A stretch of DNA of 64,000 bases from the NCBI RefSeq assembly GCF_009914755.1, contig NC_060927.1; one strand, given 5' to 3'. Shown here one piece after another: positions 1,557 through 62,930 of the stretch (the stretch's first letter is position 1; each line of letters starts with the position of its first letter). Both the position numbers and the translations under genes were made by a program. The DNA is from the human T2T-CHM13v2.0 reference genome, Homo sapiens. The notes under the pieces were generated by a model. The model was not told the origin of the DNA. It saw only the letters and a list, made by a program, of their open reading frames with translations, and did no database searches.

Positions 1557-4500
1557 CTATTGAGTAGTTTGAGTTTATATATTCTGGATATTAACTCCTT
1601 GTCAGATGTAGAGTTGGCAAATATTTTCTTTAATTCCATAGGTTGTCTCTTCAGTCTGCTGTTTCCTTTGCTGTTCAGTGCATTTTAGCTGATGTAATTC
1701 CATTTGCCTACTTTTGCTTTTGTTGCCTATGCTTTGAGATCTTATCCCCAAAATAATTACCCAGACCAACGTCCACTAGAATTTCCTCTATGTTTCCTTC
1801 TAGTAGTTTATATTTTCAGGTGTTGGATTTAAGGCTTCATTCCATTCTGAGTTGTTTTTCATATAAGGTCAGAGATAAAGGTCTAATTTTTGTAGACCCC
1901 TTCTGTATATGGATATTCAATTTTCCCAGCACCATTTAATGAATAAAGTATTCTTTCCCCATGGTATGTTCTTGGAGGCTCTGTTAAAAAACAGTTGGCT
2001 ATAAATGTGTGAATGTATTTCTGCGTTCTCTACTCTGTTCCACTGGTTTATTTATCTTTGTTTTTTGCCAGCACCATACTATTTTTCTTACCATAGCCTT
2101 ATTGTACATTTGGAAGTCAGAAAATGTGACACCTTTTACTATAATTCTTCTTCTTCTTTTTTTATTTGGCTAGGATTTCTTTGGCTATTTGGGGTCTTTT
2201 GTGGTACCATATCAAATTTAGGATTTTTTTTTATTTCTGTAAAGAATGTCATCGGTATTTTGACAGGAAAATCATAGAATCTTTAGATCACTTTAATATG
2301 GACATTTTAACAATATTAATTCTTCAAATCTATGAACATGCATATATTTTCATTTTTTGTGCACTCTTCAATTTCTTTGATCAATGCTTTATAGCTTTTA
2401 TTGTAGAAGCATTTCCTTTCTTTGATTAAATTTACTCCTATGTATTTTTTACAGCAATTATAAATGAGATTGTATTTTTTATTTCTTTTTCTGATTATTC
2501 ACTGTCAGTATTTAGAAATGCTATTGATTTTTGCACGTTAATTTTATATCCTGCAAATTTAATGAATTTGTTTATCAGTTCTAACAGTGCTTTGGTGGAG
2601 TCTTTAGATTTTCTAACTATAGGATCATTGTGTTTGTGAACCAAGATAATTTTTCCCGGATCGTAAAGGAAAGGCTTTAATTTTTCCCTATCTTGTATGA
2701 TGGAAGCTGTGGGTTTCTTATATATACTTTTATTGTCTTGAGGTAAGTTACTTCTATACCTGGTTTGTTGAGGGTTATTATCATTAAGAAATGTCAGATG
2801 TTATCAAATGCTTTTGCTTTATCTATTAAAACTCATATAGTTTTGGTTATCAATTCTGTTAATGTAATATATCCTGTGTATTGATTTGCATAAGTTGAGC
2901 CATCATTTAATCCCTGGAATGAATCTAACTTGATCAGAATAAAAAAATTTTAATGTGTTGTCGAATTTGATTTGCTAGTATTTTGTTGAGGATTTTTTTC
3001 ATCTATGTTCATCAGGAATATTGACCTGCAGCTTTCTCTTTTTGTGTTTTTATTTGGTATTGAAATCAGGATAATTCTGGCCTCATACAATAGTTTGGAA
3101 TTTTCTGTTCTTCAATTTTTTAAAAACAATTTGAGTAGAACTGATATTAGTTCTTTAAATGATTGGTAGAATTTGGCAGTGAAGTCACCAGATCATTGGC
3201 TTTTGCTTGATGAGAGACTTACTACTGCTTCAATCTTGTTACTTGTTGTTGGTTTGTTCAAGATTTTAGTTCGTGGTTCAATCTTGATAGGTTGTATGTG
3301 TCCAGGTATTTATATATTTCTTCTAAGTTTTCCTATTTGTTGACACATAGTTGTTCATAATGGTATTTAATGTTCCTTTGATTTCTGTGGTATCAGTTGT
3401 AATATATCCTTTTTCATTTCTGATTTTATTTATTTGTGTCGTTTTTCTTTTTTCTTGGTTATTCTAGCTACAGGTTTATCATTTTTTAAATCTCAAAGCA
3501 ATTTTTTGCTTTTTTGATCTTTTGTATTTTGTAGTCTTAAATTCTTTTGCTTTACTCTGATCTTTATTATTTGTTTCCTTCTAATAATTCTGGGTTTAGT
3601 TTGTTCTTGCGTTTTTAGTTCCTTAAGGTGTATTGTTAGATTGTTTATTTGAAGTCTTTCTATTCTGTTGATGTAGGTGTTTACTGATATATACTTCCCT
3701 CTTAGGATCACTTAGTACACCATAAGTTTTATTCTGTTGTGTTTCCATTTTCATTTACCTCAAGAAATTTTCAAAATTGTCTTTGTAATTTCTTCATTTC
3801 CCCATTCATATTTCAAAAGCATGTTTAATTTCCATGAATGCATATAGTTTGCAAAGTTCCTTCTGTTGTTGATTTCTAGTTTTATTCCACTGTGTTTAGA
3901 AAAGGTACTTGGTATAATTTTGATTTTTTAAAAATTGTTAACTCTTGTCTGGGGACCTAAAATATGGTCCATCTTTGGCAATGCTCCATGTGTTATTGAG
4001 AAAAACGCATATTTTGCAGCCGTTCAAGGCAATATTCTGTAAATGTCTTTTAAGCCTATTTGGTCTGGAGTGTAGTTTAACTCTCATGTTAATTTTCTGT
4101 AGAGGTGAATTGTGTATTGATGAAAGTTGGTTGTTGAAGTTCCCTATTATTATCATACTGCAGTCATTTTCTCTTTTTTGTTCTATCAATATTTATTTTC
4201 TATATTTGGGTGTTCTGGTACTGGGTACATACATATTTAGAATTGTTATATCTTCCTGTGGAATTAACCACTTTATCATTATATAGGGAACTTTTTTGTT
4301 TCTTTTTATGTTCTTTGACTTGTAGTCTGTTTTATCTGATAGAAGTATAGCTAATCCTGCTATTGTTTTCGTTTCCACCTGCATGGAGTGTCTTTCTTCA
4401 TCCCTTCTATTTGAGTCTGTGAGTGACTTTTTAGGTGAAGTGTTTCTTGTAGGCAGCCTATAGTTGAGTCATTTTATTTATTTATATTTTTAATTAACAA

Positions 4501-4967
4501 ATAATAATTGTTTATATTTGTGGGGTACATGGCAGTATTTCAATATGTACATTGCATAGTGATCATATAGAGAAATTTGCATATTAAATACCTCAAATAT
4601 TTGTTATTTCTTTGTGTTGGGAACATTTCAATATTCTCCTTTTAGGTATTTACAATTATATAATATATTCTTGTTAACTATGGTCATCTTACATTGATAT
4701 AGAATACTGTAATTTATTCCTACTGTCTTGCTGTAATTTTGTATCCTTTAGCAATTCTCTTCCAATCCCACCTTTTCCCCATCCTTCCCAGATTGTATTA
4801 TCTTTAATTATATGAGATCAATGTATTTTAGCTGTTAAATAAAAGTCAAATAAAAGGGAGACCATGCCATGTTTACCTTTTCGTTCCTGGCCTATTACAC
4901 GTTACATAATATCCTCCACTTCCATTTATGCTCCTGCAAATGACAAGATTTTTTTCTTTTTTAAGGC

Positions 4968-56257: not shown

Positions 56258-60158
<3,901 letters not shown>

Positions 60159-60234
60159 ATTTATATAACATATAATTTATATATATATTTCTTTATATGT
60201 TTATATATTATAATATATAGTTTATATATAATAA

Positions 60235-61470
60235 ATTGTGTCTCCAAATTTAAGCTAGGTGAATTAATTCAAATTAGTGAACCACAATAGACATCTCTAG
60301 TACATTGCAATGAAAATTTTTGGTACTTAGAGGTAATCTTGTGATTAAAGTTGTGAGAAATAGAAAACACCTACCTGGTGAGAAAGACATTTTAAAAGGT
60401 AGTGCAGAAGCCTACAAAACCTAATAAATTTTTTCTCAGTTTTTCCTTACTTTTCTAAAAATATGTTTTAAAACATTCTATGAAGGATAAATGCACATTG
60501 GCTCACTGTGATTTAACCTATATAACATATTGCTATTCATGAGGTGAGTAGATCCTCCAACATGTTCCTTGGGGATGAATTTGTCCTTCCTTTTAATCTT
60601 TATGAAGTTAAGATTTGTTTAAACATACTATAAAGCAGGAATCATGATTTGTGCTGAACCCTAAACTCGTAGGATGTACTATCTAGGCAGTACTTTTGAA
60701 CTGTGATGGTTGAATATGATTTATATATTAAATTCATATTTATTTATATGTTTATATATTATATAGTTTATATATGTATTTTATATATAAATATTATATG
60801 TAATTATATATTAAATATATATAATTATATATAATATATAAGTATATAGTTTATACATAATATATTTTATATATAAATATTATATATAATTATATATTAA
60901 ATATATAATTAAATATATAAACAAATATATATAGTTTATATATGATATATAAACATATAAATAAATATGAATTTAATATATAAATCATATTCAACCATCA
61001 AAGTTCAAAAGTACTGCCTAGATAGTACAACCTACTAGTTTAGGGTTCACTACGAATCATGATTCCTGCTTTATAGTATGTTTAAACAAATCTTAACTTC
61101 ATAGAGATTAAAAGGAAGGACAAATTAATCCCCAAGGAACATGTTGGAGGGAACTACTCTCCTCTTCAATAGCAATATGTTATATAGGTTAAATCACAGT
61201 GAGCCAATGTGCATTTATCCTTCATAGAATGTTTTAAAACATATTTTTAGAAAAGTAAGGAAAAACTGAGAAAAAATTTATTAAGTTTTGTAGTCTTCTG
61301 CACTACCTTTTAAAATGTCTTTCTCACCAGGTAGGTGTTTTCTATTTCTCACAACTTTAATCACAAGATTACCTCTAAGTACCAAAAATTTTCAGTGCAA
61401 TGTACTAGAGATGTCTACTGTGGTTCATTAATTTCAATTAATTCACCTAGCTTAAATTTGGAGACACAAT
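60235..61470. repeat. Long AT-rich inverted repeat (arms ~60235-60765 and ~60939-61470)
   Basis: Manual comparison: about 19-20 differences over ~530 bp; ends attgtgtctccaaatttaagctagg / cctagcttaaatttggagacacaat. Confidence 0.98.
60761..60944. repeat. AT-rich minisatellite spacer, period ~84 bp
   Basis: atatagtttata at 60761, 60844 and 60929. Confidence 0.85.
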
Positions 61471-61789
61471 ATTTCTTGAGAGAATATAAACTTAAAAAAT
61501 TATAATATTCTCACTAATAATCATGAATCATTGTAAACATTGAATTCAACGTATACCTACCTGCATAGTAAAATCTTCTATAAATTCCAGAAATCATTTT
61601 TTAAAAAGGGATGAGAAGTAAAAAAATACCTCTATGTTTCATTTTAAAAATCTGAGGACACCTTTGAAATACATATTTAAGATAAAAATCCTATTCAAAC
61701 ATCAAAGTTCAAACTTACTGCCCAAATACCAAAATTTGGCCTACATTTGCAATTAGCCAAAAACTATAAATAACCAAAATACCATCATA

Positions 61790-62930
61790 TGGTAAATAGT
61801 TGAAATATTTTATATGTCAATACAATGAAAGAATACTCAGCAATGAAAGAAACAGACTACTTGTGTAAGTAAAAATACAAATCAATATAAAAAATTTGTA
61901 CCTCTAAAAGAAGCCAGCAAAATAGGGTACATATGGATGATTGCAATTAAGTCAATCTATAGAAAAACAAAATTAAATCTGTGGTGATAAAATACGAATC
62001 ACACATTGACTGGCACTGAGATTTGGGTATAGGCATTGACTGGGACAAGGCATGAGAAAACTTTTACAGATGGCTGAAATATTCAAAATTATTATCCTGA
62101 AAATATTACAATTCTTTACACAATTACATGAAGATATGCATTTTTCAAAAAATCTATGGCATTAAAAGTGTGTATTTTATTTCATGTATATTAAAAAGCT
62201 TGATTAAAAAAGCATAACATGCCACACACACACACACAAACATGCATCAAAATAGCTAAACTAAAAGGAAATTAAAATACAAAAAACGAGATTCTCACGG
62301 ATTGATGATAAAGGTAGAAATTAGTACATCAACTTTACACTGTTTGGATATATCTTATGAAGCTAAATATATGCGTACTCTCTGGCTCAATGTTTACACT
62401 CCCAAATATATAATCAACAGAAGGGAGATCATACATTCACCAAAATACATGGAAAAGAATGTTTATTGTACCACTAACTATATTCACCAAAATCTAGAAA
62501 CAAGCCAATTGCATGTCAACTGTGGAAAGAATAAATGCATCATGGTATATTCAATGAAATTTAGTACTATATAACAATTAGAATAAACAACCTGCCACTC
62601 TACTCCACAGCATGTATGTATATTATAAACTTAATGGTGCCTATTTTTAAAAAGACAGAAATAAAATAACAATATATATTCTACTTCATATAAAGCTCAA
62701 AAACTATTTTATAACAGGCTGAATAATTGTTACACACAGCAGGGTAATAATAACTGCAGGTGGGCACACAGGCAATTTTTGTATGTTGCTTCTGAGCTGA
62801 ATTTATACAGCTGAATACACTGAATGGAGTGTATTTGTCTTTGGATAATTCATAGAAATATACAATTACTAATTGTGCACTTTCTATATGTAGATTATAA
62901 TTTACAGTTCAATAAAATGTTTGCTAAAAC
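61790..62930 (+). mobile_element. Two ancient L1M(C/D/E) 3'-end fragments
   Basis: caatacaatgaaagaatactcagcaatgaaag; gaataaatgcatcatggtatattcaatgaa; tgtgcactttctatatgtag...caataaaa. Confidence 0.65.

What the first reader, a model, noticed from the sequence alone, without database searches (positions are those of the whole stretch)
60235..61470. ~1.24 kb AT-rich palindrome (PATRR-like) built from apparently non-TE DNA
Seen: two ~530 bp inverted arms about 96% identical, separated by only ~175 bp of almost pure A/T. I recognise no transposon in the arms and no TSD around them. Known: long inverted repeats with AT-rich centres (PATRRs) can extrude cruciforms and act as breakage/translocation hotspots, and closely spaced inverted repeats are depleted in mammalian genomes. 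Inference: this is a fold-back inverted duplication that may be a fragile or inversion-polymorphic site. If transcribed it would yield ~500 bp of dsRNA (ADAR/Dicer substrate).
Basis: partly seen in the sequence, partly recalled or inferred. Interest (0 to 1): 0.8.

Follow-up and report, generated by a model that had tools for sequence, protein, structure and literature searches.

The report
Old inverted duplication with AT-rich spacer
This is a real 1.24 kb inverted repeat of single-copy human DNA around an AT-rich spacer in a chr3 gene desert; it is laid out like the palindromes that cause recurrent translocations but is too degraded to be expected to behave like them.

Summary
The inverted repeat is real. 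Arms 60235-60759 and 60945-61470 (about 525 nt) differ by 18 substitutions and 1 indel, about 96% identity. They flank a 185-nt spacer that is about 95% A/T.

- **Not a transposon:** the non-AT part of the arm occurs in CHM13 only as these two copies, and there is no target-site duplication.
- **Not an assembly fold-back:** the arms have diverged by about 4%.
- **AT core:** it is generic AT-rich minisatellite-type DNA that matches at least 401 other places in the genome.

The locus meets two of the three layout features published for translocation PATRRs: an AT-rich centre with non-AT ends, and a second AT-rich tract on one side. It fails the near-perfect, spacerless, over-90%-AT criteria.

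The calculated cost of hairpin formation is +122 kcal/mol per strand. Published values for PATRR11 alleles are 8-20, and an idealised perfect version of this locus gives +5.

My best reading is an old local inverted duplication, roughly 10-40 My by arm divergence, probably seeded at the AT tract by a fold-back or template switch. It is now largely inert. Fragility, polymorphism and dsRNA are untested.

One side observation is unexplained: the differences between the arms are rich in transversions (6 transitions, 12 transversions).

The parts
60150..60234 (.). AT-rich tract abutting the outer end of the left arm. [quoted passage not shown]
   Evidence: GC is 0.12 in 60150-60249. TRF finds arrays at 60162-60230 with periods 2, 12 and 21. 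The tract is no closer to the local core than to AT tracts elsewhere: 55 of 384 control pieces score at least as high.
60235..60759 (+). Left arm of the inverted repeat. 60235-60712 is single-copy, GC 0.32; 60713-60759 is its AT-rich inner end.
   Evidence: The genome search finds only this copy and its inverted partner.
60760..60944 (.). AT-rich spacer of 185 nt, GC 0.05. It is locally hairpin-prone but is not a demonstrable continuation of the palindrome.
   Evidence: Its fold-at-centre score is 47, against a control mean of 53.7 (sd 8.9); 213 of 270 controls score at least as high. The MFE structure shows several small local hairpins here. The longest pure (TA)n run is 4 units.
60945..61470 (-). 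Right arm of the inverted repeat. 60945-60991 is the AT-rich inner end; 60992-61470 is single-copy.
   Evidence: It is 96% identical to the left arm in the whole-genome search (E 7.5e-222).
60713..60991 (.). The whole AT-rich core (inner arm ends plus spacer): minisatellite-type DNA with an 86-bp period.
   Evidence: TRF gives period 86 with 2.4-2.7 copies at 84% matches. The core matches at least 401 places genome-wide at about 73-80% on both strands (1786 candidates, 40 scored). It coincides with the NCBI-masked stretch 60712-60992 (hub table).
61667..61728 (+). Older partial third copy of the junction between the AT core and the inner arm end. It is in direct orientation relative to the right arm.
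   Evidence: It is 82% identical over 62 nt to 60963-61024, with whole-genome E 2.4e-7. A weaker 63% similarity extends over 61495-61728 against 60789-61024.

Best explanation
This is a fossil local inverted duplication with no present function. About 525 bp (478 bp of single-copy DNA plus the edge of an adjacent AT-rich minisatellite-type tract) was copied in reverse orientation across that tract. The result is two arms around a 185-bp AT-rich spacer.

**Most likely origin (inferred).** A replication or repair error occurred at the hairpin-prone AT tract. A 3' end stalled or broken inside the tract snapped back on short AT-rich inverted homology. It copied the flanking unique DNA backwards for about 0.5 kb, then returned to the original template. 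This is a fold-back or template-switch event of the FoSTeS/MMBIR type.

**Since then.** The arms have accumulated about 4% differences. In the CHM13 allele the centre is asymmetric.

**Present behaviour (inferred).** The duplex should stay in B-form under physiological conditions. The arms could still pair as a roughly 525-bp imperfect hairpin when the region is single-stranded, for example on the lagging strand or after resection. The realistic consequences are length variation in the AT spacer and rare local deletion, not a recurrent translocation hotspot.

**Shown here:** the structure, the single-locus arms, the generic AT core, the non-palindromic spacer and the energetics. **Inferred:** the mechanism of origin, the age and the present stability.
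For: - **Structure and dimensions:**
- **Arms single-locus:** 2 of 2 whole-genome matches are the two arms. The same tool reports 70-75% identical old repeats for other queries, so the negative result has some weight.
- **Not mobile:** no TSD longer than 4 nt even with boundary shifts of up to 4 nt, and the longest stop-free stretch is 46 aa.
- **Arms genuinely diverged:** 18 substitutions and 1 indel. K2P is 0.0386, which gives about 16-39 My at 1.2e-9 to 0.5e-9 per site per year (the rates are recalled).
- **Core is generic AT-rich DNA:** at least 401 matches on both strands, 86-bp period.
- **Spacer is not a decayed palindrome:**
- **Energetics:** the hairpin cost is +122.1 kcal/mol per strand for the whole locus and +54.2 for the core alone, against +5.2 for an idealised perfect palindrome built from the left half.
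- **Published comparators:** PATRR11 alleles have costs of 8-20 kcal/mol, and asymmetric alleles rarely translocate (PMC3197554 passages). PATRR22-quasi, with a 9-bp spacer and 4 mismatches, neither extrudes at physiological conditions nor is unstable in E. coli (PMC1851657 passages).
- **Yeast Alu inverted repeats:** a spacer change from 12 to 100 bp gives 300-fold less recombination, and a drop from 100% to 94% identity gives about 15-fold fewer rearrangements (PMC10164571 passages).
- **Error-prone replicative repair:** BIR/MMBIR is described as error-prone with template switching (PMC4352052 passages). This fits the clustered arm differences at 60538-60554 and 60650-60654.
Against: - No outgroup or second human haplotype could be examined. 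The age, which arm is the original, and the stability are all inferred.
- The AT-seeded origin rests only on adjacency. The left AT flank is not specifically related to the core (55 of 384 controls score at least as high).
- No enrichment of inverted duplications near AT tracts was shown. There were 4 qualifying IRs in about 218 kb around 38 AT tracts, against 0 others in about 73 kb of window plus downstream DNA. By my Poisson arithmetic P(0) is about 0.26.
- Divergence may overstate the age if part of the differences arose at birth. Gene conversion between the arms would understate it.
- The energy figures use ViennaRNA DNA parameters, while the PATRR11 values were made with mfold. Only the order of magnitude is comparable.
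- An AT-rich spacer melts easily, so large-bubble (C-type) extrusion is not strictly excluded.
- No Dfam/RepeatMasker search of the arm was possible.
Confidence: 0.7

Rival explanations
1. It is an unrecognised, currently active PATRR-type fragile palindrome at 3p12. Some human alleles would carry a symmetric centre, extrude cruciforms, break at the centre and take part in translocations or local rearrangements. On this view CHM13 happens to carry a stabilised asymmetric allele.
For: Two of the three published common layout features are met: an AT-rich centre with non-AT ends, and a second AT-rich tract on one side. Known PATRRs are size-polymorphic, with symmetric and asymmetric alleles. The core is minisatellite-like with an 86-bp period, so length variation is plausible. 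The single-strand hairpin is very stable in absolute terms (-577.9 kcal/mol).
Against: - The arms are 96% identical with mismatches spread along them, which points to long persistence without homogenisation.
- The centre is a 185-nt non-symmetric spacer.
- Overall AT is 74%, against >90% for PATRRs.
- The hairpin cost is 6-15 times that of PATRR11 alleles.
- A much milder central asymmetry abolishes extrusion.
- No PATRR or translocation at 3p12 turned up in the literature searches. The listed PATRR sites are 11q23, 22q11, 17q11, 8q24, 4q35.1, 1p21.2, 3p14 and 9p21.
Confidence: 0.1
2. It is a fold-back or MITE-like DNA transposon, or a pair of TIRs of a known element.
For: Long terminal inverted repeats with a short interior look like a fold-back element.
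Against: Only 2 genome matches exist, and both are the arms. There is no TSD and no coding potential. The arms are not masked in NCBI's file (hub table). The core is generic AT-rich DNA, not an element interior.
Confidence: 0.03
3. It is an assembly or read artefact, that is, a fold-back chimera.
For: Palindromes are a known product of chimeric library molecules.
Against: A fold-back copy would be identical to its template. These arms differ at 18 substitutions and 1 indel, with distinct flanks on each side. No read-level data were available.
Confidence: 0.02
4. It is a transcribed hairpin locus that yields long dsRNA, as an ADAR or Dicer substrate or an endo-siRNA source.
For: If transcribed, the arms would form a stem of about 525 bp with 18 mismatches.
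Against: No gene is annotated in the window or within 100 kb (hub table). There were 0 Rfam matches at E<=1 in 59800-61900. No expression data were available.
Confidence: 0.05

Closest known systems
Translocation-associated palindromic AT-rich repeats (PATRR11, PATRR22, PATRR17, PATRR8)
   Same: Both have an AT-rich centre, relatively non-AT-rich ends, another AT-rich tract on one flank and no homology to other palindromes (features quoted). The arms here are also unique to the locus.
   Different: - PATRRs are 190-600 bp, >90% AT, nearly perfect and spacerless.
- This locus is 1236 bp and 74% AT. Its arms are 96% identical and it has a 185-nt non-symmetric spacer.
- Its calculated hairpin cost is 6-15 times higher.
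- No translocation is known here.
Closely spaced inverted Alu pairs and long inverted repeats (quasi-palindromes) studied in yeast
   Same: These are imperfect inverted repeats of a few hundred bp whose instability falls steeply with spacer length and divergence. They can still act when single-stranded.
   Different: The arms here are not interspersed repeats but a local duplication of single-copy DNA. The spacer is AT-rich minisatellite-type DNA.
AT-rich minisatellite or '(TA)-rich' tracts, the class that includes rare fragile-site repeats (named from memory: FRA16B, FRA10B)
   Same: The core is 95% AT, has a tandem 86-bp period, is quasi-palindromic and resembles hundreds of other tracts.
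   Different: It is short (279 bp), with no long pure (TA)n run (maximum 4 units). No reference fragile-site sequence was compared, so membership is untested.
Inverted duplications made by fold-back priming or template switching (FoSTeS/MMBIR; DUP-TRP/INV-DUP events)
   Same: It is an inverted copy next to its source. The arm differences are clustered, which is compatible with error-prone synthesis.
   Different: Those events are kb to Mb in size, recent and pathogenic. This one is 0.5 kb, old and fixed (at least in CHM13). No junction microhomology can be read without the ancestral sequence.

Membership tests
PATRR (translocation-associated palindromic AT-rich repeat) | [quoted passage not shown] | tested here: not met
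   Arms are about 96% identical (18 substitutions and 1 indel). The 185-nt centre is no more palindromic than generic AT tracts. Total length is 1236 bp.
PATRR (translocation-associated palindromic AT-rich repeat) | More than 90% AT overall | tested here: not met
   GC is 0.261 over the whole locus, i.e. 74% AT. Only the 279-bp core reaches 95% AT. The criterion is quoted.
PATRR (translocation-associated palindromic AT-rich repeat) | [quoted passage not shown] | tested here: met
   GC is 0.04-0.11 in the centre and 0.25-0.38 in the arms.
PATRR (translocation-associated palindromic AT-rich repeat) | Another AT-rich region flanking one side | tested here: met
   60150-60234 has GC 0.12 and abuts the left arm. 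There is none on the right.
PATRR (translocation-associated palindromic AT-rich repeat) | Lies at breakpoints of constitutional translocations, with breaks at the centre | not testable with these tools
   No report at 3p12 appeared in three full-text searches. The known sites are listed.
PATRR (translocation-associated palindromic AT-rich repeat) | Extrudes a cruciform from supercoiled DNA in vitro | not testable with these tools
   Only a calculation was possible: +122 kcal/mol per strand, against 8-20 for PATRR11. One search shows that small central asymmetry blocks extrusion.
DNA transposon / fold-back element / MITE | Multiple dispersed copies in the genome | tested here: not met
   2 of 2 matches are the two arms. 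The sensitivity of the tool is shown by the 70-75% hits.
DNA transposon / fold-back element / MITE | Target-site duplication flanking the terminal inverted repeats | tested here: not met
   The longest flanking direct repeat is 4 nt, and only with shifted boundaries in AT-rich DNA.
Long inverted repeat formed by local inverted duplication | Two adjacent inverted copies of otherwise single-copy sequence with a short spacer | tested here: met
AT-rich minisatellite-type tract (core only) | Tandem periodicity, extreme AT content and many similar tracts genome-wide | tested here: met
   Period 86 with 2.4-2.7 copies at 84%, GC 0.054, and at least 401 matches.

The most novel reading that the evidence does not exclude
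The locus records how PATRR-type palindromes are born and decay. On this reading an AT-rich tract seeds a roughly 0.5-kb fold-back duplication made by an error-prone polymerase. The transversion-rich, clustered arm differences (6 ts : 12 tv here; 10 : 25 pooled with two similar ~96% inverted duplications beside AT tracts on chrX and chr9) would then be either the birth scar of that synthesis or the footprint of selective repair of G.T/A.C mismatches when the arms pair in vivo. Some human haplotypes may still carry a symmetric, breakage-competent centre.
Probability: 0.1. Interest if true: 0.6.

Novelty: new member of a known kind. Interest (0 to 1): 0.3.

Why it matters
Long, closely spaced inverted repeats are among the few sequence motifs that can break human chromosomes, and only about a dozen PATRRs are characterised. 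This locus has the PATRR layout in a degraded state. It is therefore a natural negative control or 'fossil' for asking what makes a palindrome dangerous: symmetry, identity and AT content. It also bears on how such palindromes arise next to AT-rich tracts. By itself it is an ordinary, probably inert structural relic in a gene desert. It would matter more if ape and pangenome comparisons showed symmetric alleles, or a mutation scar dating from its formation.

Tried and rejected
1. **Palindrome extension beyond 60235/61470.** BLAST joins 60205-61508 at 91%, but the extra flank similarity is at chance level.
2. **Centre as a decayed palindrome.** Rejected: 213 of 270 generic AT pieces are at least as self-complementary.
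3. **Left AT flank as a specific relative of the core** (a split tract). Not supported: 55 of 384 control pieces score at least as high.
4. **Mismatch clusters as local template-switch (quasi-palindrome) events.** No donor was found; the best matches elsewhere are 14 of 25 and 12 of 17.
5. **Continuation of the 3'-truncated L1 downstream of the repeat.** None was found in 61471-74000. The probes taken from other L1 copies matched only 56933-57828 and AT-rich DNA, so the test is uninformative about an insertion.
6. **Rfam.** 0 matches at E<=1 in 59800-61900.
7. **Enrichment of inverted duplications at AT tracts.** The substitute control, window plus 10 kb, is too small to decide.
9. **Two papers wanted for comparison.** Neither the paper on the evolution of the NF1 intron palindrome nor the census of human inverted repeats is held. 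What I say about that literature is recalled.
10. **Band-level context.** 3p12 is listed as an evolutionary-breakpoint band without a fragile site (PMC1794428 passages). This is too coarse to bear on a 1.2-kb element.

Full report
**Observation.**
- The repeat finder gives inverted arms 60235-60555/61150-61470 (321 nt, 97%) and 60554-60781/60923-61150 (228 nt, 93%). These are one arm pair interrupted by a 1-nt indel.
- A gapped alignment of the two halves of 60235-61470 has 582 matches, 29 mismatches and 14 gap columns.
- The non-AT part of the arms (60235-60712 against 60992-61470) is 96.0% identical over 479 columns. It has 18 substitutions and 1 indel in 478 aligned positions.
- Perfect pairing runs a further 46 nt into AT-rich DNA, to 60759/60945.
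- In genome coordinates the repeat is chr3:83,698,235-83,699,470 of CHM13. Arm against arm has a whole-genome E-value of 7.5e-222.
- The ends are sharp. The extra 30-38 nt that BLAST adds on each side is at chance level: 949 of 2000 shuffles and 247 of 1000 composition-matched window pieces reach its score.

**Anatomy.** From left to right:
- An L1 fragment in sense orientation ends near 60156.
- An 85-bp AT-rich tract follows at 60150-60234, GC 0.12.
- The left arm is 60235-60759.
- The spacer is 185 nt at 60760-60944, GC 0.05.
- The right arm is 60945-61470.
- Ordinary DNA with no AT-rich tract lies to the right.

The 279-bp AT core (60713-60991) has an 86-bp tandem period, 2.4-2.7 copies at 84%. 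It is the stretch NCBI masks (hub table). Arm GC is 0.32 and whole-locus GC is 0.26.

**Not a transposon and not an artefact.**
- A whole-genome search with the 478-nt arm found 2 candidates, both scored: the arm itself and its inverted partner.
- The same tool reports 70-76% identical old interspersed repeats for the right flank and for arms at two other loci. The negative result is therefore meaningful, although it is not a Dfam search.
- There is no target-site duplication. The longest flanking direct repeat is 4 nt, and only with shifted boundaries.
- The longest stop-free stretch in an arm is 46 aa.
- A fold-back read chimera would have identical arms. These differ at 19 positions.

**The AT core is generic.** A query spanning the whole locus gave 1786 candidates. 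The 40 that were scored yielded 401 matches. Apart from the locus itself, the 150 matches that were listed all fell within the core (query positions about 607-895), on both strands, at 73-80% identity. The left AT flank is no more similar to the local core than to AT tracts elsewhere: 55 of 384 pieces from 38 other loci score at least as high.

**The centre is a spacer, not a decayed palindrome.** Folding the central 185 nt about its middle, with a floating centre, scores 47. The mean for 270 pieces of AT tracts from the 38 other loci is 53.7 (sd 8.9), and 213 of the 270 reach the observed value. The single-strand MFE structure pairs the arms and leaves several small local hairpins in the centre. 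The longest pure (TA)n run is 4 units in the core and 5 in the flank. This is therefore not an expanded (TA)n tract.

**Energetics and comparison with PATRRs.** I used the measure of the PATRR11 study, half the duplex energy minus the hairpin energy.
- This locus costs +122.1 kcal/mol per strand. The core alone costs +54.2.
- An idealised perfect palindrome built from the left half costs +5.2 (ViennaRNA DNA parameters).
- Published PATRR11 alleles lie at 8-20 kcal/mol (mfold), and asymmetric alleles rarely translocate (PMC3197554, passages).
- A PATRR22 construct with only a 9-bp central spacer and four nearby mismatches neither extruded at physiological conditions nor was unstable in E. coli (PMC1851657, passages).
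- For inverted Alus in yeast, widening the spacer from 12 to 100 bp lowers recombination 300-fold. Lowering identity from 100% to 94% lowers rearrangements about 15-fold. Divergent, widely spaced repeats still act when single-stranded (PMC10164571, passages).

[quoted passage not shown] Reviews add >90% AT and no spacer. This locus meets the second and third features. It fails the first, the AT-content criterion and the spacer criterion.

**Age and substitution pattern.** K2P distance between the arms is 0.0386. That gives 16-39 My at 1.2e-9 to 0.5e-9 per site per year (the rates are recalled, not computed here).

The differences are 6 transitions and 12 transversions, 7 of which are A<->T or C<->G. 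There are clusters at 60538-60554 (4 transversions and the indel) and at 60650-60654 (3 changes).

Interspersed-repeat pairs in the window plus 10 kb, treated the same way, give:
- 375:280 for all differences;
- 299:255 for non-CpG differences;
- 107:75 for non-CpG differences in pairs with GC of 0.40 or less.

Fisher's test of 6:12 against 107:75 gives p=0.047.

Two other local inverted duplications beside AT tracts give 1:9 and 3:4. Pooled 10:25 against the baseline gives p=0.0014. Part of the chrX mismatches lie in low-complexity DNA, so this figure is soft.

No local template-switch donor explains the clusters. If clusters are counted as single events (my arithmetic: about 13 events, 2.7%), the age falls to roughly 11-27 My. 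I leave the spectrum unexplained. Error-prone replicative synthesis at birth is one candidate, since BIR/MMBIR is described as error-prone (PMC4352052 passages). Selective repair of transition mismatches when the arms pair is another.

**Origin.** The inner 46 nt of each arm and the whole spacer are AT-rich tract. The outer end of the left arm abuts a second AT tract. This fits a 3' end inside a hairpin-prone AT tract snapping back, copying the flanking DNA in reverse for about 0.5 kb and returning to the original template. Either arm could be the original. The two versions predict different one-arm ancestors. Only adjacency supports the model, because the specific-relatedness test failed.

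A 62-nt older copy of the core/arm junction lies 704 bp downstream in direct orientation to the right arm: 61667-61728, 82%, genome-wide E 2.4e-7. The region therefore had an earlier duplication history. I could not fit that into a single model.

**Is the structure recurrent?** I fetched 38 distinct loci from the matches listed, about 218 kb in all.
- 0 of 38 show a self-palindrome with non-AT ends.
- 4 of 38 have an inverted pair of at least 150 nt and at least 85% identity within 3 kb:

| Locus | Position | Arm alignment | Identity | Spacer |
|---|---|---|---|---|
| L012 | chrX 35.196 Mb | 492 nt | 96.3% | 791 |
| L027 | chr9 31.44 Mb | 464 nt | 96.1% | 1258 |
| L031 | – | 310 nt | 92% | 722 |
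| L036 | – | 783 nt | 88.6% | 2011 (round an AT tract) |

The chrX and chr9 arms are also full-length only at their own locus. In the 74 kb of window plus downstream DNA, only the palindrome itself qualifies. With 4 in 218 kb against 0 in about 73 kb, no enrichment can be claimed. The matched control loci could not be fetched.

**Literature.**
- Three full-text searches found no PATRR or palindrome described at 3p12.
- The review I read in passages lists PATRR sites at 4q35.1, 1p21.2, 3p14 and 9p21, besides those on chromosomes 11, 22, 17 and 8.
- 3p12 appears only as an evolutionary-breakpoint band without a fragile site.
- Section 4.3 of PMC7999016 was read whole. For PMC4057610 I saw only the abstract and outline.
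- Supplements were not consulted.

**Verdict.** The allele in hand is a diverged inverted repeat with a 185-bp spacer, not a near-perfect palindrome. Published behaviour of far better palindromes predicts that it is stable. It is a new, individually undescribed member of a known kind, of modest interest. Its main value is as a candidate for ape and pangenome comparison.

Noticed in passing
window 61667-61728 (and weakly 61495-61728): An older partial third copy of the junction between the AT core and the inner end of the right arm, in direct orientation. It is 82% identical over 62 nt, with genome-wide E 2.4e-7. Similarity stops abruptly at 61728.
   Followed up: partly
window 60235-60712 vs 60992-61470; L012:2993-3478 vs 4270-4759; L027:1-460 vs 1719-2175: Arm-to-arm differences are rich in transversions: 6:12, 1:9 and 3:4 (ts:tv), pooled 10:25. 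The local repeat-pair baseline is 107:75. The cause is unexplained.
   Followed up: partly
window about 59438-60156: A sense-strand L1 fragment ends 3'-truncated exactly where the AT-rich flank begins. No continuation was found in the next 13.8 kb. This suggests the AT tract and inverted repeat sit at an old rearrangement junction.
   Followed up: partly
L012:2993-4759 (chrX:35,196,058-35,197,824 CHM13): A second inverted duplication of otherwise single-locus DNA (alignment of 492 columns, 96.3% identical, spacer 791). One AT tract lies outside the left arm and another lies just inside the right arm. The layout resembles the locus studied here.
   Followed up: partly
L027:1-2175 (chr9:31,443,391-31,445,565 CHM13): An inverted duplication (464 nt, 96.1%, spacer 1258) whose right arm abuts a 1.2-kb AT tract. 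The left arm reaches the edge of the fetched stretch and may be longer.
   Followed up: partly
L036:1068-4620 (chr1:160.07 Mb CHM13): GC-rich inverted arms of about 780 nt, 88.6% identical, bracket a 290-bp AT tract with a 2-kb spacer.
   Followed up: no
window 61745-61860: An old interspersed repeat begins just after the third junction copy. About 8 genome matches at 73-75% were listed. The family is not identified.
   Followed up: no
window 58142-59028 and L003 (window-equivalent 65001-65897): Inverted L1 pieces, 81% identical over 900 nt, lie on either side of the palindrome about 6 kb apart. They are not centred on it.
   Followed up: no
L004, L009, L014, L018, L024, L031, L035, L037: Several of the AT-rich tracts that resemble the core are kilobases long, with GC of 0.12 or less over 3-4.4 kb. 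They are far larger than the 279-bp core here.
   Followed up: no
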